A stretch of 64,000 bases of DNA from Candidatus Zhuqueibacterota bacterium (GTDB lineage Bacteria > Zhuqueibacterota > Zhuqueibacteria > Oleimicrobiales > Geothermoviventaceae): positions 36,653 through 100,652 of the forward strand of contig JAPDPT010000005.1 of NCBI GenBank assembly GCA_034506315.1. The letters are read 5' to 3'. Numbering within the stretch: position 1 is the first letter of the stretch; each line of letters opens with the position of its first letter. The notes under the pieces are model-generated. The model saw nothing but the letters and a program-made list of their open reading frames with translations. It was not told the origin of the DNA and made no database searches. Shown one piece after another: positions 26,481 to 49,518 of the stretch. Position numbers and translations under genes: made by a program.

Positions 26481-29400
26481 TCACTTAATGATCGCAAACT
26501 TCCCCATCTTTACGTCCCCCGTGACGTCGGACCGCACGTGGTAGATGTACATGCCCGCGGCCACCTCCAGGCCCTCCTTCGTCTGGAGGTCCCAGTGTAC
26601 GATCCCTTCGTCGCTCGGATTATCGACGTGAATCTCGTCGACGAGCACACCGCTCACCGTGAAGATGCGGATCGTACACTTGGCGGGAATGTGGGTGAAC
26701 ATCAGGCGTCGCCTCTGGCTCTTCTGGTAGCTGGCCACCGAAGGCTCCATCGCGTTGGTCGCCACATAGGGATTTGGCACAACCTTGATCCGCTCCATCG
26801 TCTCCCGCAGACTCTTGCGGTCGAGCCCCTCGCCTTCCCGCACGGTGAAGCGGTAGGCGTCGGTGGTGAAGAACGGACGTACGAAACTCACCCGGTACAC
26901 ATCGTTCGGCTTGGGAAGGTTGGCCGGGTCCCGCACGGGGGCGAAGTCGATGACGAAGACCGTCCCGGCCCAGCGATTATCCGTGGTCAGCGCCCCGACC
27001 AGAACGCGGTCCTCCAGGATGTCGAACTGCCCATTGCGGTTGCGGTCGTGGACCACCAGGTCCATCAACACCGGCTTCCCGTCCGGGCCCCGCACCGAGC
27101 GATTCTCTACGCGGAAGTTGAACCGCTGGCCGGTGAGCAAGACCGTTCGATCCAGCCGTACGCCTCGCTCATCGCGCATGGTCTTGGTCGTCGCCCGGCC
27201 TACGTAGGCGGAATCGTCGCCTGTGAACACGATGTCGTAGTCCCATGGGAAGAGAACCGCCTCACGGGAGGAGGGGATCACGAGGATGGGAGCGGAACCC
27301 TTTACCCAGCCCGAGTGCAGGGCATCGAACTGGGCGGTCAGCACCGGAATCTGAATCCGCAAGCGCAGCCCGTCAAAGATGTCCGACGCGATCTCTTTTC
27401 CGGGCGGGATGTACCAGACGTCGAGGGAATCGTCGTAGGTGATGTTGTTGAAGGCGAAGCGCTCCGGAGACTCCTTGTAGACCAGCCGGTTGCTGTCCGT
27501 CACGTCGTAGACGGCGAATCCCTTATCAAGGTATCGAATCCCATACGGACATCCGGCCACCGTCTCCAGCGTGTCTACCAGGAACCTGACTTCATAGGTG
27601 TGGCCGTACTTGAGATCGCCGCGTGCCAGAATCTCGGGTCTTATCTTGCCCGAGCCCAGGGTTACCCCCGTGGAGTCTGTCGCAAGGCTCGGGGGCTGGT
27701 AGCCCGCAGCCATCTGGTGCGGTACGACAATCTGCACATTCTGCCCGATGCGCCGGATGTTCTCATCCTCGTCCAGTTCGATGACCACGTTGTTTTCCGA
27801 AGGCGCCACCCCCGGCCCGATGTCCGGCGCCCCGTAGTCGTAGGCGACCAGCGCGTAGTAATAGGTCCGACCGTTCTGGACGTTGCGATCGATGAAGTAA
27901 TGCACGATCCCGGTCTCGTTGCCGAGGTAGTAGCCCATCCCGTTGACCAGGCCGTAATTGGTGAAGCCCTCGCGCCCGTCGATCACGTCGCATTGGAAAA
28001 TGGGCTTCTTGAACATGGGGGTGCCGAACCCGTCGGTAATGACCTCCGCGTCAGCCATTTTCTTGTCCGTGGCCCGGAAGAGCTTGTAGCCCTCGAAGTC
28101 GTTGATGTTGCCCATGAAGGGATCGCGCGTCTTGGTGTCCGCCACGTCGTCCCAGGTGAGGATGACGTAGCCATCGCCCGCCGTGGCCCGCAGCGTGGGC
28201 ATCTTCGGCGGCATGGCGAACCGGTAGTCCTTCTCGTAGATGACCTGCGCGATCTGCTTCAGGCGGAAAAGGGCCGGCGCCGAGTGCTCCTCCGAGTTGA
28301 GGCCGGAGAGGGGATCATACGCGTGCAGGAGGGCCATGGAGATCCGCTCCGTGCGCCCCTTGTAGAGCGGGAAAGGACCGGAAGCGAAGGTCTCGATCAG
28401 GTTCGAGATCCGACCCAGATATTCGATCAGGGTGTCCTGACCGAGCACCTCCCACATGGACTTGTCCCCTCGGAACCAGTGGTACTCCGAGGCATGGCTG
28501 GGCACTGGGAACATCATGAACGAGGTGAGGCCGACCATGTCGGACTCGGAAACGTCCGTTTCGGCGAAGTTGGGTTCACAGCCAAGTCCTTCCACATAGT
28601 CCGGCTTATGGTTGCACTCTCCCTCATCCGGACCGTTGTAGTTCAATTCCAGCGGTCCGACGCCGTCCAGCCCCACGTCGTCGCCGGCGTCTTCGCCAGG
28701 CTCGTAGACCCCGTTGCCGTCGGAGTCGTGGCCGTCCTGCCAGTCCTGATCCTCATCGGCGTCCCAATGCGGATGCAGGTCCTCCGGCTTCAACCGATAG
28801 AAGCTCAGGAACGCGTTCAAGTCGGCGATCCCGTCCGTAGGGCCGATGATTCTCTCGGCTTCGTTGTCGCGTTTTTCGTCGATGAGGCCGTCTTCGTCAT
28901 TGTCGATTCCATCGAAGGGCAAACCCGGGCTCTCCAGATAGGCGAACCCCATCACGCCGGTGGGGAATCCCCCTTGGCCGATGCCGTTAATGTCCCAGGA
29001 ATAGGCCATGTCCTGCTTGCGGTCGAAGAAGCCGAGGTCGTCGTCCTCCCCTGCTCCCGGCACCATATCGCCGATGGCGTTGTCGACCCAGTATCCGAAG
29101 GCCACCTGGGGCAGGTCATAGTTGGAGATGTTGGAGATGTTGTATTCCCAGAAGATGGCGTCGCGGGCCTGGGGGTTGTTCCATTGGAAGCCGCGCACTT
29201 CCACCCGGATACCCAGACCACCCCAAGGTTTCCCTTTTTGGATGGTGATCTTGTGGGGTAAGATGTCCCCAATTCGCACACCCGGCCGTGGGTAGTACCT
29301 GACCTTGTCCTCCGGCCCGAGGTACTCCTGATCCTGCGCGTCGTTGGCCACAAAATACGTCTCCAGGTCGGCGTAGATTACACCGCGGCCAAAGCGACCA

Positions 29401-29948
29401 TCCCATTCACCGGGCCACTTTCGACTGCGGCCTTGGGCCGGCCATCCCTCTGGAGGCCAGGAGCTGGGCAGGTTGGACATCGCTGGGTAGTCGCTCGCCT
29501 CATTGAAGTACCCAAAACAAGGATACAGTCCCCACTCCACGGTCCCGGTCGGGTCCCGGTCCATCTCCTCACGGTAGCTGGTCTGGCAGAAATAGAGGGT
29601 GTCCAGATCCTTGCGGGTGGCGATCTCCACCGGATCCGTCACCGGGATCGTGTCGTTCGCGATGAACACGCGAGCCCCGATGAGGAGCGCCACCCCGTCC
29701 AGCATCTTGGTGCCCTCGAAGGTATTCGGCCACTTGGACACGTCCACCCGCGGCCAGTCGGAAAGCTCCGTCGTGTTCCGGAAAAAGAGGAAGACGCGGT
29801 TACCGGTCATGTACCCTTCGCGCTCGGCGGCGATGTCGCCTGCCTCGTCGTCCGGGCCCTCGTACTTTCTCCCCTGCGACCAGGCCGCAGGACTCACCAG
29901 CGTCAAGGCCAGGGCTGCGCCGACCAAGATTCTCAGGACCTGCCTCAT
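26481..29948 (-). CDS. Large (1155 aa) secreted T9SS cargo protein with Asp-rich calcium-binding-type repeats, in the PorU position upstream of the PorV-like gene
   Basis: Signal peptide MRQVLRILVGAALALTLVSPAAWSQG. Repeats DGIDNDEDGLIDEKRDN and HWDADEDQDWQDGHDSDGNGVYEPGEDAGDD resemble thrombospondin-type-3 / EF-like motifs. The C-terminus ...GMYIYHVRSDVTGDVKMGKFAIIK is a T9SS CTD. No recognisable C25 Cys/His motifs. Confidence 0.55.
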   Translation of the reverse strand: MRQVLRILVGAALALTLVSPAAWSQGRKYEGPDDEAGDIAAEREGYMTGNRVFLFFRNTTELSDWPRVDVSKWPNTFEGTKMLDGVALLIGARVFIANDTIPVTDPVEIATRKDLDTLYFCQTSYREEMDRDPTGTVEWGLYPCFGYFNEASDYPAMSNLPSSWPPEGWPAQGRSRKWPGEWDGRFGRGVIYADLETYFVANDAQDQEYLGPEDKVRYYPRPGVRIGDILPHKITIQKGKPWGGLGIRVEVRGFQWNNPQARDAIFWEYNISNISNYDLPQVAFGYWVDNAIGDMVPGAGEDDDLGFFDRKQDMAYSWDINGIGQGGFPTGVMGFAYLESPGLPFDGIDNDEDGLIDEKRDNEAERIIGPTDGIADLNAFLSFYRLKPEDLHPHWDADEDQDWQDGHDSDGNGVYEPGEDAGDDVGLDGVGPLELNYNGPDEGECNHKPDYVEGLGCEPNFAETDVSESDMVGLTSFMMFPVPSHASEYHWFRGDKSMWEVLGQDTLIEYLGRISNLIETFASGPFPLYKGRTERISMALLHAYDPLSGLNSEEHSAPALFRLKQIAQVIYEKDYRFAMPPKMPTLRATAGDGYVILTWDDVADTKTRDPFMGNINDFEGYKLFRATDKKMADAEVITDGFGTPMFKKPIFQCDVIDGREGFTNYGLVNGMGYYLGNETGIVHYFIDRNVQNGRTYYYALVAYDYGAPDIGPGVAPSENNVVIELDEDENIRRIGQNVQIVVPHQMAAGYQPPSLATDSTGVTLGSGKIRPEILARGDLKYGHTYEVRFLVDTLETVAGCPYGIRYLDKGFAVYDVTDSNRLVYKESPERFAFNNITYDDSLDVWYIPPGKEIASDIFDGLRLRIQIPVLTAQFDALHSGWVKGSAPILVIPSSREAVLFPWDYDIVFTGDDSAYVGRATTKTMRDERGVRLDRTVLLTGQRFNFRVENRSVRGPDGKPVLMDLVVHDRNRNGQFDILEDRVLVGALTTDNRWAGTVFVIDFAPVRDPANLPKPNDVYRVSFVRPFFTTDAYRFTVREGEGLDRKSLRETMERIKVVPNPYVATNAMEPSVASYQKSQRRRLMFTHIPAKCTIRIFTVSGVLVDEIHVDNPSDEGIVHWDLQTKEGLEVAAGMYIYHVRSDVTGDVKMGKFAIIK

Positions 29949-29983: not shown

Positions 29984-32668
29984 CTAGAACATCAGGCTCA
30001 CACCGAACTTGACCAGGCGCGGCGCCGAGTACATAGACGGATCCTGGACCCGATCGATGTACTCGTTGAAGTCGCTGCGGTGGCCCGCAATATCCGTCTC
30101 CCGGATGATCGCCGTGTACGCCCGCCCGGTCTGCGGATTAACCCGCACCTCGTTGAGCCGGTCCAGGAGGTTGTAGACGTTCATCTCAAAGCGAAGCCGC
30201 AAATCACCCCGCAGCGGGACATCGTAATACCCAGTGAAGTCCACACTGTAGGTGCTCGGCTGCCAGGAATTGTTCGGAAGCAAGTTCACCCGGGCCAGCG
30301 TGCTGGCCGAAATCGGTTGCCAGGTGAAGGGCGTACCGGAGTTGTAATAGGCGGTCAGGGTGGCTCCGTAGTTTTCGGTGTGGTAGCCCACCGTGGCATT
30401 CAGGGTGTGGCGCTGGTCCCAGCTCATCGGGATGAGAATGCGGATCGGGTCCAGGTTCTGCCCCTCGCGGTTGAAATTGTACGTTGGGTAGTCGGCATTG
30501 CCGCGTGTGTACTGCAAGGTGTAGTTCACCATCGCCGTCACGTTGCGCCAGCGGAAGTCGTACTTGACCTCCAGCCCGCGCGCATTTCCATAGTCCTTGT
30601 TGCTGTAGAGCCCATAGCGGATCTGATTGTAAGTGGTGATCACGCTTGTGCTCAAGAGGTCGTAGATATCGCGATAGAACAGAGCGACCTCAAGGGCCAT
30701 GGCATCGGTCAGCTGCTGCCAGAGACCCACCTCGTACTGGACGGTCTTCTGGGCATGGATCTCAGCATTGCCCATCGTGGTGGAGTAGTTGTTCGGGGCC
30801 ACCCGGAAGGCGTGATTCTGGTACATCGCGTAGAGGGGCGGCATCTGGAAGAAGTGGCCGTAGCTGAAGTGGAGCAGGGCCGTTTGCGCCAGCTGATACG
30901 AAAGCCCAAGACGCGGGGAGACCTGGTACTTCGCATGGGCCTTGGGATAGGTGGACATGCGCATCGGGTCGTCGAAGTACAGCTGATTAGCCGGGTTGCG
31001 CCGGTTGGAGGGGTACACGTGATTGGGATCGAAGTAGTCGAACCGGACCCCGACGTTGATCACCATCTCGTCGAATTCCATTTTGTCCTGGACGTAGGCC
31101 GAGAACTCGCGCGGCTTGACCCGGTAGATATCTGAGTAGATGGAAGAGTCGGGAAGGGTGATCGGCTCGTAGAAATCCTGCTCCCGATCGGTGCCGTAGT
31201 ACTTGTTTCGGATCTCCTTATATTGCTCGTCCAGGTCGTGCTGAATGAACTGCGCCCCCGTCTTGATGCTGTGGTTCTTGTTCACCTGCCAGGTGAGGTC
31301 AAATTTGGCGTTGTAGTCCCGCAGCCACCGCTCGTCGTGCCCTTTCTGCTGTCCTCCCGTGTAGAAGCCGGGGTCGGATCGGAAATACTTGTCGTGCACG
31401 TAGCGGGGGTCTTGAGGATCCTTGTAGACGTACCAGCCGTGGTACTGGTACGCATAAGAAAGCTTAAGTTCGTAGAAGAGCCGTGCCGAGAGCATGTGAT
31501 TGAGTTCGTACGCCAGCAGGTAGGAATTGCGGTGGGTAGCCGCCATCCCATCGGGATTGTATTTGAACATGTGGTTGTAGTCGTGCCACTCGTCCTGATT
31601 GGCGGTCCAGACCAAGGACATCTTCACGTCGGAGAACGGACGAGCGGTGAGCTTGGCCAGGTACGAAAGGTTCTTGCTACGGTTCATTGGGACGTAGGCG
31701 CTATCACCCGTGTGCTCCGAGTACCAGAGCGTCGAGTCGTCGGCCTCGAAGTTGCTGTAGTCGTCCACGCGGAACCGGCGCACCCCATTGAGGTGATTCT
31801 TGTTGTCCTGCCAGCGGAAGTTGGTGAAGAACGTAAGCTTGTCACGCAGAACCGGTCCGCTCAGCTGGAAGCGGAGGTCTTTGTTGCGGTCGAATTCGTC
31901 GTCGCGCAGACCGATGAAGATGTTCTTGTGGGGCGTGAGGTAATTGGCGAGGCTGAAGTAGATGGAACCGTCGAAGCGATTCGTCCCGTCTTTGGTGACC
32001 GCGTTCACCACGCCGCTCATCGCCCGCCCGTACTCGGCGTTAAAGGTCCCGGTGATCACCTCCAGATCCTTGATGCTCTCCGGTTCCAGATCGACAATCC
32101 GACCGGTGCCGCCGAAGGGCTCGGTCACGGGCAGTCCGTCGATCAGATAGGCCACCTCGGAGAGGCGTCCGCCCCGGAAATGCCCGTGCACCACTCCAGG
32201 CTGAAGGGCAATGATGGCGCCCATGCTTTCCACAGGCAGTTTATCGATGTCGTCGGCAGAGACGTTGCGGATGGAGCTGGTCTGGTCTTTCTTCATTTCG
32301 ATGCGCTCGGCCTGTACCACCACAACCTGCCCCTCGATGGCTGTCGGGTTCATCTGGACTTGCACATTGGTGGTGCGATTGACCGAGACGCGTACATGCT
32401 CCATGCGCACCGTCTCGTAGCCGATCATTCGTACCGCGAGGGTGTAGTCGCCGGGAGGTACGTTCAGAATCACAAACTCCCCATTCTCGTCGGTGGCCGC
32501 ACCCCGCGTAGTCCCTTCCAGGATCACGTTCGCGGCAGGTAAGGGCTCGCCATTGGTCGCGTCGACCACCTTGCCCGCAATCTTCCCTGTGGTCTGCCCT
32601 TGGAGACCGCTGGCCAGAATGTGGAGCACTAGTCCCACGAGGACGAATCTCGACACTCGCCGCTTCAT
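29984..32668 (-). CDS. TonB-dependent outer-membrane receptor with N-terminal carboxypeptidase-regulatory-like domain
   Basis: The N-terminal stretch AGKVVDATNGEPLPAANVILEGTTRGAATDENGEFVILNVPPGDYTLAVRMIGYE is a CarbopepD_reg-like domain. It is followed by plug and barrel sequence, and the protein ends ...LVKFGVSLMF (terminal aromatic residue). ATG at 32666-32668. Confidence 0.85.
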   Translation of the reverse strand: MKRRVSRFVLVGLVLHILASGLQGQTTGKIAGKVVDATNGEPLPAANVILEGTTRGAATDENGEFVILNVPPGDYTLAVRMIGYETVRMEHVRVSVNRTTNVQVQMNPTAIEGQVVVVQAERIEMKKDQTSSIRNVSADDIDKLPVESMGAIIALQPGVVHGHFRGGRLSEVAYLIDGLPVTEPFGGTGRIVDLEPESIKDLEVITGTFNAEYGRAMSGVVNAVTKDGTNRFDGSIYFSLANYLTPHKNIFIGLRDDEFDRNKDLRFQLSGPVLRDKLTFFTNFRWQDNKNHLNGVRRFRVDDYSNFEADDSTLWYSEHTGDSAYVPMNRSKNLSYLAKLTARPFSDVKMSLVWTANQDEWHDYNHMFKYNPDGMAATHRNSYLLAYELNHMLSARLFYELKLSYAYQYHGWYVYKDPQDPRYVHDKYFRSDPGFYTGGQQKGHDERWLRDYNAKFDLTWQVNKNHSIKTGAQFIQHDLDEQYKEIRNKYYGTDREQDFYEPITLPDSSIYSDIYRVKPREFSAYVQDKMEFDEMVINVGVRFDYFDPNHVYPSNRRNPANQLYFDDPMRMSTYPKAHAKYQVSPRLGLSYQLAQTALLHFSYGHFFQMPPLYAMYQNHAFRVAPNNYSTTMGNAEIHAQKTVQYEVGLWQQLTDAMALEVALFYRDIYDLLSTSVITTYNQIRYGLYSNKDYGNARGLEVKYDFRWRNVTAMVNYTLQYTRGNADYPTYNFNREGQNLDPIRILIPMSWDQRHTLNATVGYHTENYGATLTAYYNSGTPFTWQPISASTLARVNLLPNNSWQPSTYSVDFTGYYDVPLRGDLRLRFEMNVYNLLDRLNEVRVNPQTGRAYTAIIRETDIAGHRSDFNEYIDRVQDPSMYSAPRLVKFGVSLMF

Positions 32669-32741: not shown

Positions 32742-32796
32742 AAATCCCTCACCGCAGGGATTTGCCCCTGGGGCGGCCGTGGGTCGCCCCAGGGGC
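32742..32796 (-). other. Two adjacent perfect hairpins between the binding-protein gene and the TonB receptor gene (attenuator/terminator-like)
   Basis: Hairpin 1 is a 12-bp perfect stem GCCCCTGGGGCG (32764-32775) / CGCCCCAGGGGC (32785-32796) with a 9-nt loop, starting 10 nt after the stop at 32806. Hairpin 2 is an 8-bp stem AAATCCCT (32742-32749) / AGGGATTT (32756-32763) with a 6-nt loop. There is no clean U-tract. Confidence 0.4.
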
Positions 32797-32805: not shown

Positions 32806-35304
32806 TTAGCGGATCAGGACCATCTTCTTGGTCGCGGTGAAGTCGCCGGCCTGCATGCGGTAGAAGTATACACCGGAGGGCAGGTCGGAAGCGTTGACCT
32901 GCACCGTGTATTCACCGGCCTGCTTGAACTCGTTCACCAGGGTCTTCACTTTCTGGCCGAGGGCGTTGTACAGCTCGATCTTCACCACTCCTGGCTTGGC
33001 GACGCTATAGGTCACCGTGGTCGCCGGGTTGAAGGGGTTCGGATAGTTCTGCGACAGGGAGAAGCTGGTGGGGACACCCTTCCCAACGTCACTCACCGCC
33101 GACACGTGGGTGGTGTCGCCAATCCAGGTGTACTCCCACTCACGCGGGTCCTGCCAACCGTGGTCGGTGTTGTACGGCGAGCGACCGAGGTTCCCCTCCC
33201 AGCCTTTGCCGTCGTTGTCGTGGAAGTACAGCTCCAGCGGGATCCTCATACCGCGCTGGGGGTGGAAACGCCGGTCATTGGCGTTGTAGGAAATGGCGAG
33301 GGTATCCAGGGAGATCTTCGCTTCGAACACATAGTCCGCACCGCCCAGATCGGTGAAGAAGTACCTGCCGTCACCCGGGGTCCCGAGGACGTAATGAGTG
33401 CCTTCTGCAAATAGCTCTCCCTGCACGAAGATCAGACTGTAGTCCGGCTGATCTCCGCGCTTGTAGGAGGCGTGCTTGGCCCCTCGGAGGTCGTACATGC
33501 CGATGAAGAACTGGAAGGCATCCTGCTCCCACCAGTTCCCGGGACCAAAGTGGTACACGTCGTCTACGATATCGCCGGCGACGTAGAGGTAGTTGTCGTC
33601 GATGGCGAGGTACACTGTGGCTTTCAGATCACTGCTATCATTGATGCTCCCCACGACGACATAGTCCGTCTCCGGCTTGAGGACAAACGGCCGGATCCCG
33701 CTCTGGTCCCATTCGCTCAGGTCGCCATCGGCCGCGAAATTGGCCGGCGGGTTCAAGGAGATCGTCGGGATGCCCTTCGCCACATTGGTGGTCGGTACGG
33801 AGGTTGCGCCAAAGGACTTGCTCACATTCCCGGCCTCGTCCGTACAGGTGACGGCGTAGTAGTACTGGACCTCCTTGTCCTTGAGCGGATAGTAGAGCCA
33901 GTGGACGGCGCTCCGGGTGTCCTCCGGGACATTGGCGGCCACCAAGTCCACATCCGGATCGTTCAGGTCGGTAATGGGCTTGGTGGAAGCGTAGACCGTG
34001 TACTTCTCACCCGACTCGCCCGGTACATCCTGCCAGAACACCAAGTTGTAGTACTCGGCCGCCATGGCCCCCACACCAGTGGGCGCCGCGGGCGGAATCA
34101 CGTCGATCACCGGGCTATCCGTCCAAATGAAGTCAATCCAGACCACTTTGCCTGCCACACCTGTGCCGTTGGCCATGAACTGGAGGACCTTCACATTGGA
34201 GGGGTTGAAGTTCGAGGTCCCATCCTGGTATTCCAGCTCGCTGAGCTTGAAGGCGTAGTCGTGCCACTGCTCGTCGTCGATGGGCTGGAATACCTTACCC
34301 ACCTTGGCCTGGCCATCTTCCAGCTGGACCCGCAGCGCGCCGACGCCAGGATCCGTCTTCATGCGGAATTTCAGGGTATCCGTTTCCCACACCGCCGACA
34401 TGTCAAAGGGCGGATTGATATTCCATCCCGCGCCGGTCCAGCCATTGCCCCATTCGTTGCCCTGCGTCCACTTCAGGGCGTTGGTTTCGTTCGTCCCGGC
34501 CCCCTCAACCAGTTCCAGGGTCGACTGGCCCCAGGTGAACTGGGAAAGCCGGGTGGAGAGCGTCTTGCCATTGAAGAAGATGTAAGCCACGCGCTTCAGT
34601 CCGCGCAGCTCCATATGGTCCAGGACGATGGTCCCGAACACATGGTCCCCTTCTCCGCCGCCGCTCACAGAAAACTCAAAACCGAAGCCCTTGATGCGGT
34701 CGAGGTCCAGCTTGTTGTTGCCCCAGATTCCAGCCCATCCGGTGAGATTAAAGCCCTCGCCTCCCCACTCGTCCAGCTTCGGGTCCATTCGGGCGTCGAC
34801 CATTAGCATCCGGATTTGGTGCCAACCAGGCGCATTATCCAGGACGTAGTGGAACGAGTACCACAGCTCGCCCTGATTGGCATTATAGGTGTTTGCTCCC
34901 GTCGCCGCATCGCTCACATCGTAGAATTGGATGCGCAGGTGAACGCGTCCTGGCTTCGACGCAGGCGCGATATTGTAGTACCAGATGGTGAGGGTGTCGT
35001 ACATGGAGAAGTCGTAGGTCTTGGTGGAATCCGGGTGCCAGTGCTCGATCTTAGAGAATCCGCCCCAGCTCTCCATGTTGTGTACGGAATAGTCCAGCCG
35101 CATCGCCCCGGTCCCAACCTTCACCGGGTCCGTCACGTAGCTCACGTGAACGTACCCTTTGGAGGTGTCCGCGTGCTGGTTGATTACGTGGATCCAGTAG
35201 TTCGGATCCGTCGGGGCTTCGTCAAAGCTCTCCACCACCAGTTGCGCCGCTGCCCATGTCGGGAAAAGCAGGAGCATCGGCACGATCCACCACGGCTTTC
35301 TCAT
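32806..35304 (-). CDS. Secreted multi-domain carbohydrate-binding protein (CBM9-like / beta-sandwich domains, non-catalytic) with T9SS C-terminal sorting domain
   Basis: Signal peptide MRKPWWIVPMLLLFPTWAAAQ from the ATG at 35302-35304, with a strong GGAGGTGG RBS. Aromatic-rich beta-sandwich modules (...DGDLSEWDQSGIRPFVLKPE..., ...HDNDGKGWEGNLGRSPYNTDHGWQDPREW...) resemble CBM9. No catalytic motifs were seen. The C-terminus ...GVYFYRMQAGDFTATKKMVLIR is a T9SS CTD. Confidence 0.55.
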   Translation of the reverse strand: MRKPWWIVPMLLLFPTWAAAQLVVESFDEAPTDPNYWIHVINQHADTSKGYVHVSYVTDPVKVGTGAMRLDYSVHNMESWGGFSKIEHWHPDSTKTYDFSMYDTLTIWYYNIAPASKPGRVHLRIQFYDVSDAATGANTYNANQGELWYSFHYVLDNAPGWHQIRMLMVDARMDPKLDEWGGEGFNLTGWAGIWGNNKLDLDRIKGFGFEFSVSGGGEGDHVFGTIVLDHMELRGLKRVAYIFFNGKTLSTRLSQFTWGQSTLELVEGAGTNETNALKWTQGNEWGNGWTGAGWNINPPFDMSAVWETDTLKFRMKTDPGVGALRVQLEDGQAKVGKVFQPIDDEQWHDYAFKLSELEYQDGTSNFNPSNVKVLQFMANGTGVAGKVVWIDFIWTDSPVIDVIPPAAPTGVGAMAAEYYNLVFWQDVPGESGEKYTVYASTKPITDLNDPDVDLVAANVPEDTRSAVHWLYYPLKDKEVQYYYAVTCTDEAGNVSKSFGATSVPTTNVAKGIPTISLNPPANFAADGDLSEWDQSGIRPFVLKPETDYVVVGSINDSSDLKATVYLAIDDNYLYVAGDIVDDVYHFGPGNWWEQDAFQFFIGMYDLRGAKHASYKRGDQPDYSLIFVQGELFAEGTHYVLGTPGDGRYFFTDLGGADYVFEAKISLDTLAISYNANDRRFHPQRGMRIPLELYFHDNDGKGWEGNLGRSPYNTDHGWQDPREWEYTWIGDTTHVSAVSDVGKGVPTSFSLSQNYPNPFNPATTVTYSVAKPGVVKIELYNALGQKVKTLVNEFKQAGEYTVQVNASDLPSGVYFYRMQAGDFTATKKMVLIR

Positions 35305-36963: not shown

Positions 36964-39213
36964 TCACCGGCCGACACCCAGCTCGAACTGGGCCGACAGC
37001 GGGCCCACAGAGACCCTGAAATCGCCAGGCTCAACGTTTGGACGGTTGTCCAGACCGATAAACGCCAGATCGTCCTTCGTCAGACGGAACAGGACTGTCT
37101 TCTCCTGACCTGGGGCCAGGCTCACCTTCTCGAAGCGCTTCAACTTCCGAACCGAAGGGGTAACGGAGGCGTAGAGGTCACTCACGTAAAGTTGCACTAC
37201 TTCCGCTCCTTCCCGCGCGCCTACGTTCCGCACCTTGACCCGCACGGTGAGGGTGTCGTTTAGGGACATACGGCTCGGGAAGACTTCGAGGTCCGCAAAT
37301 TCGAATCGGGTGTAGCTCAGACCATGGCCAAAGGGCCACTCCGGGTTGTAACGGTTGTACGGGCCGTTTTCTTCGCTGTACTTGTGATCGTAGAGGGTGA
37401 GGTCGTTTGGATGACGCGGGTAGGTGATGGGCAGCTTCCCGCTCGGATTCACGTCGCCGAAAAGGATGTCCGCTATGGCCTGGCCCCCTTCCAGGCCGGG
37501 AAGGTAGGCCATCAGGATCGCCCTCGCGCCGTCCACGATCCGGCGGATCACACGGGGTCTACCTTCCACAAGTACCACGACGACCGGCACACCGGTTCGC
37601 TCCAGCGCTTCCACCAGTCGGAGCTGCGCCTCGGGCAGGTTGAGATCGAGAATGTTGCCTGGGGTCTCGCAGTAAGGAGCCTCGCCCACACAGGCGATCA
37701 CCACGTCCACTCCTGCTGCGGCCTTCACGGCCGCCTTTACGTCGATCTCGCGATCAAACGTGGCCCCCGGAACGTAACGCACCCTCCTTTCCCCCACTTT
37801 CTGCTGGATGGCCTCCAGGATGGTCAGCTTCTCCTGCGGGTAGAGGTCCTCGCGGTTCCCTTGCCAGGTGATCGTCCACCCGCCGTTCAGACAGCTCAGA
37901 CAATTGGCCGCAGGACCGGTGACCAGTACGCGGGCCGTCTTCTTCAAGGGCAAAAAGTCCCCGGCGTTTTTGAGGAGCGTAATTGATTCTTGCGCTGCCT
38001 GAAGAGCTACTCTCCGGAACTCCCTATGGCCGATCTCTCCCCTGCGCGCCGCATCGGGATAGGGATTCTCGAAGAGCCCGAGCTCGAACTTGAGGCGCAA
38101 GATTCGCCGTACAGCTTCATCGATCCGCGCTTCCGGAACTTCGCCCTCGCGCGCGAGCTCCAGAAGCAGCTCGTAAAAACTGAAATCCTCCGGGACCATA
38201 CTCATGTCCACTCCGGCCAGAACGGCCATTTTCACCGCCTCTTTCTGGGTGGACGCCACGTGGTCCCGGTAGTGCAGGTTGTTGATGTCCGCCCAATCGG
38301 AGACCAGCAGGCCATTGAATCCGAGCTCGCCCCGCAACAGATCGGTCAAGATGAACTTGTTGGCGTGCACCGGCCTCCCGTTGACCTCGCCGCTGTTGGC
38401 CATGACGGTGTGCACTCCTGCTTGGATCGCCGCCCGAAAGGTCGGCACGAAGTACTCCCGCAGCATGTTCTCGGGGATCCAGGCTGGGGTTCGGTCTTTG
38501 CCGGTAAGAGGGAAGCTGTAACCGAGATAGTGTTTCGCACAGCCTGCGACCCGGCCCGGCGCCGCCACGTAGTTGTCTTCCCCTTCGAGACCCTTCACGT
38601 AGGCCGCCCCCATGGTTGCGGCGAGGTAGGGATCTTCCCCGAAGGTCTCGAAGAGCCGAGGCCAGAGGGGCTGGCGTCCGATGTCCAGGACCGGTGAGAA
38701 GTTCCAGGGGATCCCGCAGGCTCGCACCTCAAAAGCCGTGATCTCTCCGTTCTTCCGCACGAGCTCCGGGTTCCAGGTGGCCGCCATCCCAAGGTTGTGC
38801 GGGAAAATTGTGGCGCCGACTGTGTAGTTTGCTCCGTGGACGGCATCGATCCCGTACAGGATGGGGATACCGAGCCTTGACTCCTTGGTGGCCACATCCT
38901 GAATCTGGGTGATGATGCGATGCCACTGATCCACCGTGTAGGCGGCGTTCACCACATTGAGGATCGAGCCCACATGGTAGTCCAGTATGGCCCTGCGCAG
39001 CTTCTGGGGGTCAAGTACATCGTCCGAAGAGTCCGCAGCGACCACCTGAAGGGTCACCTGCGTCATTTGTCCCACTTTCTCTTCCAGCGTCATCTGGCGC
39101 AGTAGATCATCCACCTTGCGCTCGATTTCCTCGCGGCTGGGACGATCGGACCCCACCGCCTGGCTTCCGAAAAGCAGGACCATACCCAGTGCGCAGATCC
39201 AAGCATTCTTCAT
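36964..39213 (-). CDS. GH3 family beta-glucosidase (BglX-like), periplasmic/secreted
   Basis: GIPILYGIDAVHGANYTVGATIFPHNLGMAATWNPEL and the catalytic nucleophile context GFNGLLVSDWADI (SDW) are present, along with C-terminal GH3 domains. Signal peptide MKNAWICALGMVLLFGSQAVG from the ATG at 39211-39213. Confidence 0.9.
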   Translation of the reverse strand: MKNAWICALGMVLLFGSQAVGSDRPSREEIERKVDDLLRQMTLEEKVGQMTQVTLQVVAADSSDDVLDPQKLRRAILDYHVGSILNVVNAAYTVDQWHRIITQIQDVATKESRLGIPILYGIDAVHGANYTVGATIFPHNLGMAATWNPELVRKNGEITAFEVRACGIPWNFSPVLDIGRQPLWPRLFETFGEDPYLAATMGAAYVKGLEGEDNYVAAPGRVAGCAKHYLGYSFPLTGKDRTPAWIPENMLREYFVPTFRAAIQAGVHTVMANSGEVNGRPVHANKFILTDLLRGELGFNGLLVSDWADINNLHYRDHVASTQKEAVKMAVLAGVDMSMVPEDFSFYELLLELAREGEVPEARIDEAVRRILRLKFELGLFENPYPDAARRGEIGHREFRRVALQAAQESITLLKNAGDFLPLKKTARVLVTGPAANCLSCLNGGWTITWQGNREDLYPQEKLTILEAIQQKVGERRVRYVPGATFDREIDVKAAVKAAAGVDVVIACVGEAPYCETPGNILDLNLPEAQLRLVEALERTGVPVVVVLVEGRPRVIRRIVDGARAILMAYLPGLEGGQAIADILFGDVNPSGKLPITYPRHPNDLTLYDHKYSEENGPYNRYNPEWPFGHGLSYTRFEFADLEVFPSRMSLNDTLTVRVKVRNVGAREGAEVVQLYVSDLYASVTPSVRKLKRFEKVSLAPGQEKTVLFRLTKDDLAFIGLDNRPNVEPGDFRVSVGPLSAQFELGVGR

Positions 39214-39236
39214 CGCCATCCCCTTGCCTTTCAGCC

Positions 39237-42209
39237 CTACTTGAGCACAAGCCACTTCCTGACCTCCACGGAGCCTCCCAGTGCAGCCTTCAGCAGATAC
39301 ACCCCCGTCGGTAGCCGATCCGCGCCCTCTAGGACCTGGCCAAGAGCCAAACGGAGGCGACCGGCCTTGGCCCTGAGTGGGGCGGACTCCATCACTTTCC
39401 TGCCTCGGAGATCAAACACGGCAATCGCCACTTCCCCCTGATGTGGCACGGCAAGCTGCAGATAGCAATCGTCTGCCCTGCAAGCCGAAGGCCTCCAGGG
39501 GTTGGGATAGAGACTCTCAATGGCAAACCGTCGCGGGATTTGCTGCGGGGAGGATTCGTTCTCCGCACCAGAAGGGCCACGGTAGATCTTCAGGCCGTAC
39601 CACACGGTGCGGTCTTTGGCCTGGTCCAGCTCGATCCGGAACCGACCGCCCACCACGGGCGCCCGCCACGAGCGCGCCAGCTCGGACTCGCCCTTGCGCG
39701 AGAGCGGGAAAATCCGCACGGAGTCCGCCGGAGTGGCAAGCTCCAGGACCACGCGCCGGGGCTCTACAAACGTGGGAGGCCTCCCCCATTGGTCATGGAC
39801 CGTACGCACGCCATCCCAGATCATGCCGTCATTCTGCACCCGGGAGGCCAAGGCTACAAGTACGCGATTGGTCGAATCGAAGGGCAAGCTGTCCACACAA
39901 ACAGCCGTCAGGGTCGTAAACCCGTCTGCGGACACCACCCTCCACGGACCGGTCTCCAAGCCTGCAAAGCGATCCAGCATCCCCGTGAAGGCCAAGAAGC
40001 GCGGACTAGCCACCCGCAGAAGGCCCAAGGGGTCCCACAGGATCTCTCCCGTATCCGAAAGGTACGGAGGACCGGACACGGCCGGAAGATGGCTCGCATC
40101 CAGGGGGGAGGGGCTCTGGAAGTCCACATTGCGCAGGCTATGGAGTAGGGCCAAACGCGGGTCCACAGGGGAGGGACCTTCCCATCCTCGGTAGCCCCGG
40201 CTTGGCTCCAGCAGCACATCCTCCCTATAGCTGTAGGCCAACGGAATCACCTGCCGCGCGGGCGCGACAAACCCCGCCCGGAGAGCGAGGGCGCAGGTGG
40301 GCATGTGAGCCATAATCGCTGTATTTCGGTGGTCGCTGAAAAAGCCGCGGACCAGATCGGTCTCCCAGTCGTCGCTGGTGCTCGCGTACTCGAAGAACAT
40401 GAAGCCGTCCGCGTCGTGGAACGCCGAGTAGGCCGTGATGAAGACCACGCCCTCCGTCTGATAGCGATTGGGGAAGGGATGGTCGTATTCACTGACTGTG
40501 TAAGGCTTGCCGGCCCAGGCTCTCCCGGCAAACAGCCGGCCGATTGTGGCGCCATTCGTCTCGAGCACCATCGCCGTGTTGTTGATGAACCAATCCACGG
40601 GTGACCAGGGCTCTCCTGGAAACTGAGGGTGGTCCCAGTACGCATGGTTGTCCACGTAATCCGCCTGCGACTGCACGTAGAGGTCCACCAACCCGAAGTT
40701 CCAGTTCGTGCGCACGATCGGCACCTTGACGCCGACCTCCGTTCGGAGGTAATTCTCCATGTCCGAGAAGAAACTCTCCTGGAGGCGGATGTAGAATTCC
40801 GTCTGGTCGGCTACCCGCGCGTCGCTGTAGGAGGGGCAGGCAGAGAAGGGGATGCGCCGCACCGTGCCTGCTTCGAGGCGCTCATCCTCAGCAAGACCAT
40901 AGCGAAGGCCTTCGTAGAGGTGCAGATCGTCAAACCAGTACGTACCTCGGGAGGCCCCCAGGAAAAAGCTCACCCGGAGATTGGTGTACTCCTGATCGGG
41001 CCTCCAGCTCATCGAAAAGGTCTGCCAATTGGGTTCGAGACGGAAACGACCGTAGGCGTACGTCGTCCAGGGGTCCGCGTTTTTCATGATGACCACGGTG
41101 ATGTCGCGGGGCGCGTCGGCTCGAGCCAGGAACTGCAGGACGTAGACGGAGTCCCTGTGCACGGCCAGACCGGCCTGCTGCCATTGCACGTGCCAGTCCA
41201 CGCCGTCTGTGGCCGTTACCACGACCCGTGCCGAGAGCCTTCCTTCCGCGGGGTCGGATGTGTCCACTGCCTGGTTGGCGGCTGCTGGGGAATGCACTTC
41301 GAGTCTCCAATTGCGAAGCGCCGGATCGCTATCGATCGTTCCGCCCTTCAGGAGATCGCGAGCAGCTCGCAGCTCGGCACCCCCCCACGCAAGACGCAGG
41401 TTCTCGGTGCTCCCGTACTTGTCCCTTAGAAACTGGCACCAAAGGCTGTCCAGAAGCCGGGCGTGGTAGTAGGTCAAGTTACCCCCCTCTCGAATGGGGG
41501 CCAGCAGGTCCTGACGCCACATGTAGTAGAGCGAGTTCTCGTTGGTGATCTCCACCATGGCCATCACCGGGTCGTCCTTCAGCGGGAGACGGGTGTAAGG
41601 GTTCACGTGGGTCAGGAGCTGGCGCGCGTATTCCTTCTGAAGCTCGATCAGACGGCGATCGAAGAGGCTAACCCCCTTGGCGAAATCGCGCAACGAATCA
41701 GCGTAGGGAACGCCGTCCTCCCTCCGGAAGGTACGGCTCACGTGAAGATTGACGTTGACGCGAATGCCATTGCGCTTCAGGTGAGCGATCAGATACTCCA
41801 GCCTGTCCAGCGTGACCGGGTTCAGGTGTCGTGTGTCAGAGCCCTGCTGAAACAGACTGCCCGGGCTCCACGGATTGTCCATGTGGTGCAGGCGGACCAG
41901 ATTGAAACCCATCTTTCGCAGCCGGGCCGCAATCCAGGGGGCCTTCGACTTGACCGGGAAGCAGCCATCGGCCACCAGATTCGTGCCGAAGAAGCGGAGC
42001 CGCTTGCCGCCTGCGGCGAAGTGGCCCTCCCCGTTGATGGTGACGAATTCGCCTGGACGGACAGCCTCGCTAAACGAGGGCCAACACTCCTGGAACGAAC
42101 TGTCCTCGGGCGGAAGGTAGAACGAGAATCCCCCGGTGAACTCCTGAGGAAAGGCCAGCCCCACCGCAACGAACAGCCCCGTTACCGCGATGGTAACCGC
42201 TCTGGTCAT
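39237..42209 (-). CDS. Large clan GH-A (GH5-like) glycoside hydrolase with T9SS C-terminal sorting domain
   Basis: The (beta/alpha)8 N-terminal region NLVRLHHMDNPW ... VMAMVEITNENSLYY has an NE acid/base-like strand-4 motif as in GH5. About 990 aa with beta-sandwich C-terminal modules. The C-terminus ...GVYLLKAALGGSVEVRKWLVLK is a T9SS CTD. ATG at 42207-42209 (MTRAVTIAVTGLFVAVGLA). Confidence 0.6.
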   Translation of the reverse strand: MTRAVTIAVTGLFVAVGLAFPQEFTGGFSFYLPPEDSSFQECWPSFSEAVRPGEFVTINGEGHFAAGGKRLRFFGTNLVADGCFPVKSKAPWIAARLRKMGFNLVRLHHMDNPWSPGSLFQQGSDTRHLNPVTLDRLEYLIAHLKRNGIRVNVNLHVSRTFRREDGVPYADSLRDFAKGVSLFDRRLIELQKEYARQLLTHVNPYTRLPLKDDPVMAMVEITNENSLYYMWRQDLLAPIREGGNLTYYHARLLDSLWCQFLRDKYGSTENLRLAWGGAELRAARDLLKGGTIDSDPALRNWRLEVHSPAAANQAVDTSDPAEGRLSARVVVTATDGVDWHVQWQQAGLAVHRDSVYVLQFLARADAPRDITVVIMKNADPWTTYAYGRFRLEPNWQTFSMSWRPDQEYTNLRVSFFLGASRGTYWFDDLHLYEGLRYGLAEDERLEAGTVRRIPFSACPSYSDARVADQTEFYIRLQESFFSDMENYLRTEVGVKVPIVRTNWNFGLVDLYVQSQADYVDNHAYWDHPQFPGEPWSPVDWFINNTAMVLETNGATIGRLFAGRAWAGKPYTVSEYDHPFPNRYQTEGVVFITAYSAFHDADGFMFFEYASTSDDWETDLVRGFFSDHRNTAIMAHMPTCALALRAGFVAPARQVIPLAYSYREDVLLEPSRGYRGWEGPSPVDPRLALLHSLRNVDFQSPSPLDASHLPAVSGPPYLSDTGEILWDPLGLLRVASPRFLAFTGMLDRFAGLETGPWRVVSADGFTTLTAVCVDSLPFDSTNRVLVALASRVQNDGMIWDGVRTVHDQWGRPPTFVEPRRVVLELATPADSVRIFPLSRKGESELARSWRAPVVGGRFRIELDQAKDRTVWYGLKIYRGPSGAENESSPQQIPRRFAIESLYPNPWRPSACRADDCYLQLAVPHQGEVAIAVFDLRGRKVMESAPLRAKAGRLRLALGQVLEGADRLPTGVYLLKAALGGSVEVRKWLVLK

Positions 42210-42219
42210 AGCTCCTGCC

Positions 42220-45645: not shown

Positions 45646-45672
45646 CGGTCGTTAGGCTCCTATCGGAAGGCC

Positions 45673-47697: not shown

Positions 47698-47732
47698 GCT
47701 CCCACCTCCTCGCCTTGTTACCTTGGGTGATG

Positions 47733-47752
47733 TGAACAAAATCCAGGCCGGA
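47733..47752 (-). promoter_or_regulatory. Weaker sigma-54-like -24/-12 element for the GH5 gene
   Basis: Minus-strand cGGCCTG-GATTT-TGTTc: GG at 47749/47748 with correct spacing, but the -12 element is TTGT rather than TTGC. It sits about 35 nt upstream of the GTG start and 75-115 bp downstream of the tandem palindromes, the same geometry as at 36.8 kb. Confidence 0.3.
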
Positions 47753-47824
47753 CTGCGGACGGAAAACGGTGCCTTGAATTGCAACGACTTAACGGGCCGG
47801 CGCACACGGAGGCCGGCCCCGGCA

Positions 47825-47864
47825 ATTATCGCCATGATAATGGGACGTTATTGTTCTGATAACG
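47825..47864. promoter_or_regulatory. Second pair of ATTATC-N5-GATAAT-type palindromes (candidate UAS), upstream of the GH5 gene and adjacent to the sigma-54 regulator gene
   Basis: ATTATCGCCATGATAAT (47825-47841) is a perfect ATTATC-N5-GATAAT site. CGTTATTGTTCTGATAACG (47846-47864) is a degenerate GTTAT-N7-ATAAC site. Centres are 22 bp apart, identical to the pair at 36912-36950. Confidence 0.5.
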
Positions 47865-48053
47865 CCACGAGGGAGGAGTCTCGTCGCCCCTGAGCCCAAG
47901 GGGACAAAGGATGCGCGGTGTCACTTGGACAGCCGTGCGTGAAGGGGTTCTCTTGCAGCGCTCCGGGGAGACCCGTCCGCGATGAGGGGCAAGACGCAGC
48001 TTGCGCGGAACCTCCCCCCACTCCGGCCGGGAGCTGGTAGCCAGAGGGTCCCG

Positions 48054-49514: not shown

Positions 49515-49518
49515 GGGC

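What the first reader, a model, noticed from the sequence alone, without database searches (positions are those of the whole stretch)
32806..35304. Non-catalytic multi-CBM T9SS protein placed directly upstream of the TonB-dependent receptor
The 832-aa product has aromatic-rich beta-sandwich modules (CBM9-like among them), no hydrolase motifs and a CTD. The gene is followed within 137 nt by the TonB-dependent receptor. This pairing mimics a SusD/SusC glycan-capture couple, but the binding partner would be anchored via T9SS/A-LPS rather than lipidation. The intergenic spacer carries two perfect hairpins (a 12-bp stem and an 8-bp stem) that could set the binding-protein to receptor stoichiometry by partial termination.
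Basis: partly seen in the sequence, partly recalled or inferred. Interest (0 to 1): 0.55.

Follow-up and report, generated by a model that had tools for sequence, protein, structure and literature searches.

The report
T9SS glycan-binding protein heading SusD-less uptake cassette
This gene encodes a secreted, non-enzymatic sugar-binding protein that is the first gene of a conserved but undescribed five-gene outer-membrane sugar-uptake cassette in little-studied bacterial phyla, where type IX secretion parts seem to replace the lipoproteins used by Bacteroides.

Summary
Window 32806-35304 (-) encodes an 832-aa protein with a signal peptide, three CBM-like beta-sandwiches (CBM11-like, CBM30-like, CBM9) plus an Fn3 module, and a type A T9SS C-terminal domain. 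No catalytic fold was detected. A TonB-dependent receptor (TBDR) starts 137 nt downstream, and the spacer carries the only perfect hairpin of 12 bp or more in the 64 kb.

The protein is 100% identical to MDZ7372832.1 from a candidate division KSB1 MAG, annotated only as a "T9SS type A sorting domain-containing protein".

The pairing is not chance. In 60 of 69 related loci the homologue is followed by the orthologous TBDR. The TBDR is then followed, in 29 of 29 loci with enough sequence, by a highly conserved 1155-aa unknown protein with a PorZ/PorU-like CTD and by a PorV/PorQ-family barrel.

A strong hairpin follows the stop codon in 46 of 47 distinct spacers. It is the most stable local fold of the whole locus in 34 of 44 loci.

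The SusD analogy is only partly right. This protein resembles a CBM-type surface glycan-binding protein (SGBP-B), and the SusD position is held by the 1155-aa protein. Physical coupling, anchoring and hairpin function are inferred. I found no published description of the cassette.

The parts
32806..35304 (-). Gene for the 832-aa non-catalytic T9SS glycan-binding protein ('T832'); the stop codon is 32806-32808
   Evidence: 100% identical to MDZ7372832.1 of a candidate division KSB1 MAG.
35242..35304 (-). Sec signal peptide (aa 1-21, ...TWAAA/QL), no lipobox cysteine
   Evidence: Read from the translation. Low pLDDT helix at aa 7-18.
34591..35241 (-). Domain 1 (aa 22-238): CBM11/CIA30-like beta-sandwich
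34111..34590 (-). Domain 2 (aa 239-398): CBM30-like beta-sandwich with the GNEWGNGWTGxGW motif; it occurs in two variants across the family
33760..34110 (-). Domain 3 (aa 399-515): Fn3-like module
33115..33759 (-). Domain 4 (aa 516-730): CBM9 with the aromatic clamp W592/W717
32809..33048 (-). Type A T9SS C-terminal sorting domain (aa 753-832)
   Evidence: TIGR04183 51.6 bits (cut-off 23) and PF18962 45 bits.
32764..32796 (-). Main hairpin, starting 9 nt after the stop codon: 12-bp perfect stem (14 pairs allowing one mismatch), no U-tract
   Evidence: An equivalent hairpin is present in 46 of 47 orthologous spacers.
32742..32763 (-). Second, 8-bp hairpin (AAATCCCT/AGGGATTT); RNAfold prefers a different pairing and it is not conserved
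29984..32668 (-). TonB-dependent receptor, 894 aa (CarboxypepD_reg N-terminal domain + plug + barrel); not SusC/RagA by NCBIfam
   Evidence: The orthologue follows T832 in 60 of 69 loci.
26481..29948 (-). 'U1155': 1155-aa protein in the SusD position, with no Pfam family, acidic Ca-binding-like repeats, an Fn3-like segment and a divergent CTD most like those of PorZ and PorU
   Evidence: Always present after the receptor (29 of 29).
25376..26449 (-). PorV/PorQ-family 14-strand outer-membrane barrel (start taken as the ATG at 26449)
   Evidence: NF033709 206.7 bits (cut-off 90). Below the PorV and PorQ equivalog cut-offs. PF19572. Translation.
23603..25117 (-). 'U504': helical protein of unknown family, a frequent fifth gene of the cassette (start uncertain)
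   Evidence: Homologues of 500-515 aa sit in the same position in L003 and L165-L168.
21790..23589 (-). GH16 + malectin + CTD beta-glucanase that flanks the cassette
36964..53131 (-). Upstream part of the beta-glucan locus: GH3; GH5-like+CBM4_9+CTD; malectin+GH116+CTD; GH5+CBM6+CTD; sigma-54 response regulator; histidine kinase; solute-binding protein; GH16
   Evidence: The same set recurs in related loci.

Best explanation
[quoted passage not shown] It is a rigid string of CBM11-like, CBM30-like, Fn3 and CBM9 modules ending in a type A CTD.

It is the first gene of a conserved five-gene outer-membrane uptake cassette: T832, a TonB-dependent receptor, the 1155-aa CTD protein U1155, a PorV/PorQ-family barrel, and U504. 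The cassette lies inside a beta-glucan (mixed-linkage glucan, cello-oligosaccharide or laminarin) utilisation locus of a KSB1 bacterium.

Proposed mechanism:
1. T832 is displayed on or near the cell surface and binds beta-glucan chains and their reducing ends.
2. It holds them for the T9SS-exported GH16, GH5 and GH116 enzymes and passes oligosaccharides to the receptor. This makes it a functional analogue of the CBM-type surface glycan-binding proteins (SGBP-B) of Bacteroidota.
3. U1155 probably keeps its PorZ/PorU-like CTD and is held on the dedicated PorV/PorQ-like barrel next to the receptor, taking the SusD position.
4. The conserved GC-rich hairpin just after the T832 stop codon acts as a leaky terminator and/or a 3'-end mRNA stabiliser. 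T832 would then be made in excess over the transporter genes, which are co-transcribed by read-through.

Shown here: the domain content, the CTD, the cassette synteny and the conservation of the hairpin.
Inferred: glycan specificity, surface anchoring, physical contact with the receptor and the effect of the hairpin on expression.
For: Architecture and lack of a catalytic fold:
-.
- The CBM9 Trp clamp is conserved as W592/W717.

Cassette synteny:
- 60 of 69 homologues are followed by the orthologous receptor, and 29 of 29 receptors by U1155 plus the PorV-like barrel.
- Sampling from the U1155 side gave the same order in 4 of 4 loci, including a second Caldithrix abyssi locus with a 41%-identical paralogue.
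- Across loci, identity to the window's T832 and to its receptor co-varies (Spearman 0.71). All five domains, including the Fn3 'spacer', are about equally conserved at 53-60%.

Substrate context:
- GH16 (BglS-like), GH3, GH5, GH116 and a sigma-54 two-component system surround the cassette.

U1155 and the barrel:
- The U1155 C-terminus hits the PorZ CTD (E 1.8e-6) and the PorU CTD (2e-4) better than the generic tail model.
- Foldseek top hits for the U1155 model are PorU and PorZ.
- PorU and PorZ keep their CTDs bound to PorV and PorQ (PMC10202324).
- Genetically linked shuttle or anchor barrels are known for type B CTD cargo.

Hairpin:
- A hairpin of dG -15 kcal/mol or lower is present in 46 of 47 distinct spacers, starting a median 13 nt after the stop codon.
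- It is the strongest 44-nt fold of the whole locus in 34 of 44 loci and in the top three in 39 of 44.
- It is followed by T-runs in many AT-rich genomes.
- It ends 45 nt or less from the receptor ATG in 16 of 47 spacers, which leaves no room for a promoter of its own.
- The downstream junctions are short and have no hairpin.
Against: - There is no experimental datum for any family member.
- Nine of 69 homologues lack an adjacent receptor, for example Calab_3510 next to a GH5+CBM6 gene. The protein can therefore work without the cassette.
- A canonical type A CTD is normally cleaved. Surface retention in KSB1 is unknown, so T832 may simply be released.
- In the window itself the hairpin has no U-tract, and 73 nt lie between the hairpins and the receptor ATG. 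An independent promoter cannot be excluded here.
- The whole-spacer z-score is only -2.05.
- No promoter was located: sigma-54 motif searches were at or below chance.
- The CBM11 and CBM30 assignments rest on structural similarity at 18-20% identity. The ligand is a guess from the neighbouring enzymes.
- The U1155 model is poor (pLDDT 55.9), and the TM-scores to PorU and PorZ are about 0.07.
Confidence: 0.55

Rival explanations
1. T832 is a freely released or generally surface-attached glycan-binding protein, or an 'enzyme helper', that is only co-regulated with the locus. The hairpin is a full terminator that ends an upstream transcription unit, and the receptor-U1155-PorV-like genes form a separate operon. 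Under this reading the synteny reflects the usual clustering of a polysaccharide utilisation locus, not a functional couple.
For: - Orphan copies sit beside GH5 or GH16 genes with no receptor.
- In AT-rich relatives the hairpin with its T-run looks like a complete intrinsic terminator.
- In the window and in L003, 70-76 nt remain after the hairpin.
- Type A CTDs are normally cleaved, and many such cargoes are released (PMC10202324).
Against: - The gene order is fixed in 60 of 69 loci across at least three phyla, at 35-58% identity.
- In 10 of 47 spacers the hairpin ends 30 nt or less before the receptor ATG, and only 14 nt before it in L115 and L116. A downstream promoter cannot fit there.
- The conservation of all domains is unusually uniform for a free CBM protein.
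Confidence: 0.27
2. T832 itself is the cargo that plugs into the cassette's PorV/PorQ-like barrel. Its CTD would be retained, and T832 would form the lid or capture arm of a stable receptor complex. This would be a true SusD-equivalent partner, with U1155 doing something else such as processing or scaffolding.
For: - The cassette always carries a PorV/PorQ-family barrel.
- A review hypothesises that cognate PorV-like barrels protect CTDs from cleavage.
- Across loci, identity to the window's T832 and to its receptor co-varies.
Against: - T832 has a canonical type A CTD, whereas it is U1155 whose CTD resembles the retained PorZ and PorU CTDs.
- U1155 and the barrel are inseparable (29 of 29) and tightly spaced, whereas T832 also occurs as an orphan and is set apart by the hairpin.
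- T832 is all-beta and CBM-built, unlike SusD.
Confidence: 0.12
3. T832 carries an unrecognised catalytic activity, for example a new glycoside hydrolase or lyase family hidden in the unassigned N-terminal 400 residues.
For: - The N-terminal two domains have no significant Pfam hit in the window protein.
- They contain many invariant acidic and aromatic residues.
- Conservation is high for a plain CBM.
Against: - The best structural matches are all non-catalytic CBMs (CBM11, CBM30, CBM8, CBM29, X584) or CIA30.
- Individual homologues do hit Pfam CBM_11 and CBM30.
- No GH16-type ExDxxE or comparable motif is visible in the alignment.
Confidence: 0.06

Closest known systems
CBM-containing surface glycan-binding proteins of Bacteroidota PULs (SGBP-B, 'SusE-positioned'; for example Cf-SGBP of the Christiangramia forsetii laminarin PUL, bioRxiv 10.1101/2023.09.07.556657)
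   Same: - It is non-catalytic.
- It is a tandem of beta-sandwich CBM and Ig/Fn3 modules.
- It is encoded next to the glycan TonB-dependent transporter inside a beta-glucan locus.
- It is expected to be abundant at the surface.
   Different: - SGBP-Bs are lipoproteins encoded downstream of susC/susD, and they rarely show detectable homology to one another.
- T832 has a Sec signal peptide plus a T9SS CTD and lies upstream of the receptor.
- It belongs to a full-length family conserved at 45-58% identity across KSB1, Calditrichota and Marinisomatota.
SusC/SusD pair and 'utilisome' complexes of Bacteroides
   Same: A glycan-binding surface protein or proteins is genetically coupled to a TonB-dependent transporter that has a CarboxypepD_reg-type N-terminal domain, within a regulated polysaccharide locus.
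   Different: - No SusD homologue was seen in any cassette locus examined.
- The receptor fails the SusC/RagA model (77 bits against 368).
- The SusD position is held by an unrelated 1155-aa CTD protein together with a PorV/PorQ-family barrel.
PorU-PorV and PorZ-PorQ pairs of the T9SS attachment complex; type B CTD cargo with cognate PorP/SprF barrels
   Same: - A CTD protein is encoded beside, and presumably held by, a dedicated FadL-like PorV/PorQ-family barrel.
- The U1155 CTD is most similar to those of PorZ and PorU.
- Genetic linkage of cargo and shuttle is as described for type B CTDs.
   Different: - Here the pair sits in a nutrient-uptake operon with a TonB-dependent receptor, not in the secretion machinery.
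- The barrel is below both the PorV and the PorQ equivalog cut-offs.
- U1155 has no peptidase or PorZ beta-propeller signature at the sequence level.
CBM9 of Thermotoga maritima Xyn10A (PDB 1i82)
   Different: In T832 the module sits in a stand-alone binding protein rather than appended to a xylanase. Its ligand is untested.

Membership tests
T9SS type A CTD cargo | C-terminal Por_Secre_tail domain scoring above the curated cut-off | tested here: met
   TIGR04183 51.6 bits (cut-off 23) and PF18962 45 bits (cut-off 27).
T9SS type A CTD cargo | N-terminal Sec signal peptide | tested here: met
   MRKPWWIVPMLLLFPTWAAA/Q, read from the translation. No dedicated predictor was available.
T9SS type A CTD cargo | The host encodes a T9SS (SprA/Sov, PorK/L/M/N, PorU/V) | not testable with these tools
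   Only the window was available. It holds a PorV/PorQ-family gene and at least six CTD proteins, but no core T9SS genes were seen.
CBM9 | Pfam CBM9_1 match above the gathering score, and the CBM9 fold | tested here: met
CBM9 | Aromatic clamp equivalent to TmCBM9-2 Trp71/Trp175 | tested here: met
   W592 and W717 align to the two tryptophans. Their role is taken from PMC8280721.
CBM9 | Binding of glycan reducing ends | not testable with these tools
   Needs recombinant protein with ITC or affinity gels.
CBM11 / CBM30 (N-terminal domains) | Sequence match to the family profile | tested here: not met
   The window protein has no CBM_11 hit and only E 0.07 for CBM30. Only one of 22 homologues passes for each family.
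CBM11 / CBM30 (N-terminal domains) | Beta-jelly-roll fold superposable on family members | tested here: met
SusD / RagB | Alpha-helical TPR-based fold with a SusD Pfam match | tested here: not met
   All-beta model and no SusD family hit.
SusD / RagB | Lipoprotein encoded immediately downstream of susC | tested here: not met
   There is no lipobox Cys, and the gene lies upstream of the receptor.
SGBP-B (CBM-type surface glycan-binding protein) | Non-catalytic tandem of CBM and Ig-like modules encoded in a PUL next to the transporter | tested here: met
   Class definition.
SGBP-B (CBM-type surface glycan-binding protein) | N-terminal lipid anchor and a position after susCD | tested here: not met
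   T832 has a Sec signal peptide plus a T9SS CTD and precedes the receptor.
SusC/RagA TonB-dependent transporter (downstream gene) | TIGR04056 score above the cut-off | tested here: not met
   77.2 bits against 368.25, with only the N-terminal 200 residues matching.
Intrinsic (Rho-independent) terminator (spacer hairpin) | GC-rich stem-loop | tested here: met
   12-bp perfect stem, conserved in 46 of 47 spacers.
Intrinsic (Rho-independent) terminator (spacer hairpin) | U-tract directly after the stem | tested here: not met
   The window hairpin is followed by AAAUCCCU and was not flagged by the scan. T-runs are present in many AT-rich orthologous spacers.
PorV/PorQ family (cassette barrel) | NF033709 score above the cut-off; PorV or PorQ equivalog models | tested here: inconclusive
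   The family model is met (206.7 bits, cut-off 90). PorV (95.9 against 250) and PorQ (84.4 against 220) are not met. It is therefore a distinct subfamily.

The most novel reading that the evidence does not exclude
In KSB1, Calditrichota and Marinisomatota, TonB-dependent glycan uptake may be carried out by a 'T9SS-built utilisome'. In this model the receptor is capped by U1155, whose uncleaved PorZ/PorU-like CTD is plugged into a dedicated PorV/PorQ-family barrel. T832 is the over-expressed capture arm of the same complex. CTD-barrel pairing would then have been co-opted as a general way to anchor proteins on the surface, replacing the SusD and SGBP lipoproteins of Bacteroidota. That would be a second, independent solution to building surface-exposed nutrient-capture machines.
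Probability: 0.3. Interest if true: 0.8.

Novelty: new variant of a known kind. Interest (0 to 1): 0.62.

Why it matters
Glycan uptake through SusC/SusD and lipoprotein SGBPs is the paradigm for the FCB superphylum, but it has been worked out almost only in Bacteroidota. KSB1, Calditrichota and Marinisomatota are abundant in sediments and in the ocean, and their polysaccharide uptake is essentially undescribed.

A conserved and easily recognised five-gene cassette gives three things:
- a genomic marker for PUL-like loci in phyla where SusD-based PUL prediction fails;
- a testable case of T9SS CTD-barrel pairs used for nutrient capture rather than secretion;
- a natural example of a conserved intra-operon hairpin placed after the binding-protein gene.

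Caldithrix abyssi is cultivable and carries the cassette (L165), so the model can be tested directly.

Tried and rejected
- The genome-contig scan with the full-length alignment was wasted. I repeated the scan on metagenome contigs with an N-terminal alignment.
- Searches for a sigma-54 promoter (TGGCAC-N5-TTGC) in the window and upstream of T832 in about 60 loci gave no signal: 16 hits against 24 expected, and no enrichment over controls. No promoter could be placed. The sigma-70-type scan gave nothing convincing near the gene either.
- The AF2 model of U1155 failed for residues 20-720 (pLDDT below 50), because the listed homologues are all 62% identical or more. Only the C-terminal third could be interpreted, so the Foldseek hits to PorU and PorZ are weak evidence.
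- The afdb50 fold library was unavailable.
- The look-up of Calab_3088 (P0240) found no record.
- My perfect-stem counter under-reported hairpins with long loops or mismatches (55% of spacers). I replaced it with RNAfold-based scans.
- I checked whether the 12-bp stem is a dispersed repeat. The pattern occurs nowhere else in the window.
- I considered a BamG-like (FadL-family BAM subunit) role for the barrel. I rejected it as the main reading because the protein scores as PorV/PorQ family.
- Nine literature searches found no description of this protein family or of the cassette.
Full report
**1. What is at the coordinates**

On the minus strand an ORF ends at 32806. The ATG at 35304 follows a GAGGAGG ribosome-binding site and gives 832 aa. 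The N-terminus MRKPWWIVPMLLLFPTWAAAQ is a Sec signal peptide without a lipobox cysteine.

Pfam finds CBM9_1 at aa 545-723 and Por_Secre_tail at aa 754-829. NCBIfam TIGR04183 (T9SS type A sorting domain) scores 51.6 bits against a cut-off of 23.

The next gene downstream, 29984-32668, is an 894-aa TonB-dependent receptor with a CarboxypepD_reg domain, a plug and a barrel. It fails the SusC/RagA model (77 bits against 368).

The spacer is exactly 137 nt. It contains the 12-bp perfect hairpin at 32764-32796 and the 8-bp hairpin at 32742-32763.

The protein is 100% identical to GenBank MDZ7372832.1 from a candidate division KSB1 MAG. There it is annotated only as a 'T9SS type A sorting domain-containing protein'.

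**2. Domain anatomy**

No catalytic fold appears.

At the sequence level the window protein's N-terminal 400 residues have no significant Pfam hit. Single homologues do hit CBM_11 (E 2e-7) and CBM30 (E 1.2e-4). I therefore call domains 1 and 2 'CBM11-like' and 'CBM30-like' by fold and do not claim family membership.

In the CBM9 module, W592 and W717 align with Trp71 and Trp175 of TmCBM9-2. Those residues are the sugar-binding clamp according to PMC8280721.

All five domains, including the Fn3 module, are about equally conserved at 53-60% identity to the window protein.

**3. The family**

A search of 5.8 billion proteins gave 652 hits. The top 120 are nearly all full-length (about 815-870 aa), at 44-88% identity and with the same Pfam pattern. 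They come from KSB1, Calditrichota (Caldithrix abyssi Calab_3510), Marinimicrobia/Marinisomatota and Zhuqueibacterota.

An exhaustive phmmer search with the N-terminal two domains found only 308 cluster representatives (84 at E 1e-30 or better) among 1.84 billion. The family is compact and restricted.

**4. The pairing with the receptor is conserved and is part of a larger cassette**

I fetched 80 metagenomic loci using an N-terminal alignment and mapped the window's proteins onto them by tblastn.
- Of 69 full-length homologues with at least 600 bp of downstream sequence, 60 are followed on the same strand by an orthologue of this receptor.
- In all 29 loci with at least 5 kb beyond the receptor, it is followed by orthologues of the 1155-aa ORF (U1155, 26481-29948) and of the next gene (25376-26449).
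- A 500-aa protein (U504) or a GH16 gene usually comes next.
- Across loci, identity to the window's T832 and to its receptor co-varies (Spearman 0.71).

Sampling from the U1155 side gave the same order four times out of four. The examples include a second locus in Caldithrix abyssi, which carries a 41%-identical full-length paralogue of T832 among GH9, GH18, GH5 and GH3 genes.

There are exceptions. Calab_3510 and a few metagenomic copies lie next to GH5+CBM6 or GH16 genes with no receptor.

**5. The other cassette genes**

The gene after U1155 is a PorV/PorQ-family barrel. NF033709 scores 206.7 bits (cut-off 90), but the protein is below the PorV and PorQ equivalog cut-offs.

U1155 has no Pfam or PDB sequence match. 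It is nevertheless 62-91% identical across more than 2000 homologues in the same phyla. Its last 105 residues match the CTDs of PorZ (E 1.8e-6) and PorU (E 2e-4) better than the generic tail model, where it scores 18.7 bits against a cut-off of 23.

The AF2 model of U1155 is usable only for about aa 720-1155. Its best Foldseek hits are PorU and PorZ, with very low TM-scores.

According to the review PMC10202324, PorU and PorZ keep their CTDs and stay bound to PorV and PorQ. The authors suggest that cognate PorV-like barrels protect CTDs from cleavage. For type B CTDs, genetically linked PorP/SprF barrels act as dedicated shuttles or anchors.

By analogy, which is inference, U1155 is probably held on the cassette's own barrel next to the receptor. 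The junctions between receptor and U1155 (median 33 nt) and between U1155 and the barrel (median 15.5 nt) are short and have no hairpin.

**6. The locus**

The genes around the cassette are:
- GH16 + malectin + CTD;
- GH3;
- a GH5-like + CBM4_9 + CTD protein;
- malectin + GH116 + CTD;
- GH5 + CBM6 + CTD;
- a second GH16, best matched by BglS-type beta-glucanase models;
- a solute-binding protein, a histidine kinase and a sigma-54 response regulator.

The same set recurs in the related loci. This is a beta-glucan utilisation locus. From general CAZy knowledge, CBM9, CBM11 and CBM30 bind beta-1,4 and mixed-linkage glucans. That makes mixed-linkage glucan or cello-oligosaccharides at least as likely a substrate as laminarin.

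No SusD homologue was seen in any cassette locus examined.

**7. The hairpin**

In the window, the 12-bp stem is the only perfect stem of 12 bp or more in 64 kb. Only four stems of 9 bp or more exist, and 10 Markov simulations produced none of 12 bp or more. The stem is not a dispersed repeat.

Across orthologous loci the sequence is not conserved but the feature is.
- 46 of 47 distinct spacers carry a hairpin with dG of -15 kcal/mol or lower, starting a median 13 nt after the stop codon.
- In 34 of 44 loci it is the most stable 44-nt fold of the entire 6-22 kb locus on the coding strand, and in 39 of 44 it is in the top three.
- In AT-rich genomes it is followed by a T-run, like an intrinsic terminator. 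In the 68% GC window and in L003 it is not.
- In 16 of 47 spacers the hairpin ends 45 nt or less from the receptor start codon, in 10 of 47 it ends 30 nt or less away, and in L115 and L116 only 14 nt away. A separate promoter downstream of the hairpin cannot fit there.

The simplest reading is read-through of a leaky terminator or mRNA-stabilising stem. That would give more T832 message than transporter message.

The second, 8-bp hairpin is specific to the window, and RNAfold folds that region differently. I could not locate a promoter.

**8. Interpretation**

T832 is best described as a T9SS-exported functional analogue of the CBM-type surface glycan-binding proteins (SGBP-B) of Bacteroidota. 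It is not an analogue of SusD. SGBP-Bs are non-catalytic multi-CBM lipoproteins encoded next to susCD, are highly produced, and usually show no mutual homology.

T832 differs from them in three ways:
- its export and anchoring signal (a CTD instead of a lipid);
- its position (before the receptor and followed by a hairpin);
- its membership of a conserved cross-phylum family.

The SusD slot is occupied by U1155 together with a dedicated PorV/PorQ-like barrel.

Rival readings are weighed in the rival explanations section of this report:
- a loosely associated or released binding protein with a full terminator;
- T832 itself being the barrel's cargo;
- a hidden catalytic activity.

**9. Novelty**

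Nine full-text searches found no description of this family or of the cassette. That includes the C. abyssi genome paper and a KSB1 survey. Public annotations read 'T9SS type A sorting domain-containing protein', 'sugar-binding protein' or 'hypothetical protein'.

I rate this as a new variant of a known kind, namely a PUL-type system centred on a TonB-dependent transporter and built with T9SS parts. The library does not cover subscription journals, so prior description cannot be excluded.

Noticed in passing
window 26481-29948 (-): U1155 is a 1155-aa protein with more than 2000 homologues at 62-91% identity across KSB1, Calditrichota and Marinisomatota. It has no Pfam, NCBIfam or PDB sequence match. 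It carries acidic DxDxDG-like (Ca-binding-like) repeats, and AlphaFold2 failed on its N-terminal 720 residues. It is more conserved than the receptor it follows.
   Followed up: partly
window 36910-36950: An AT-rich palindrome, TCATTATCACGGTGATAATGA, is followed by a second near-copy, CATTATCAGGCCGATAAT. It lies in the gap between the GH3 stop codon and the next ORF and is one of only four perfect stems of 9 bp or more in the window. It looks like an operator or promoter element, and sigma-70-like hits overlap it.
   Followed up: no
window 35394-36821 (-): A 475-aa Ala/Leu/Gly-rich, membrane-like ORF lies between GH3 and T832 and has no family hit. It is only 40% identical to its counterpart in the closest relative (L003), where the flanking genes are 78-87% identical, and it is absent from most other loci. 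It may be a fast-evolving membrane protein or not a gene at all.
   Followed up: partly
window 54017-58882 (-): A single 1621-aa ORF combines a complete AcrB/RND permease (aa 47-1072) with an ABC-transporter ATPase domain (aa 1345-1489) in the same frame. It could be a gene fusion, a lost stop codon or an assembly artefact.
   Followed up: no
window 9260-10987 (-): A strong homologue of the methanol-cobalamin methyltransferase subunit MtaB (E 4.9e-149) in a KSB1 genome, next to an aldehyde dehydrogenase.
   Followed up: no
alignment A1, columns about 290-480; L165:4293-6848: Domain 2 of the family comes in two forms. One has the GNEWGNGWTG motif. The other has a W..AVWDG motif and a 20-40 residue insertion (P0054, P0077, P0112 and the C. 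abyssi paralogue in the GH9/GH18 locus). This domain may be the one that sets specificity.
   Followed up: partly
L090 and L149: Some loci carry two tandem family members: T832a, then GH16, then T832b, then the receptor. Only the second copy abuts the receptor. L149 is also one of the two loci whose spacer hairpin was not among the 15 strongest folds of the locus.
   Followed up: no
window 42220-45645 (-) and 21790-23589 (-): Malectin domains are fused to a GH116 enzyme and to a GH16 enzyme, both with T9SS CTDs. This pairing recurs in related loci.
   Followed up: no
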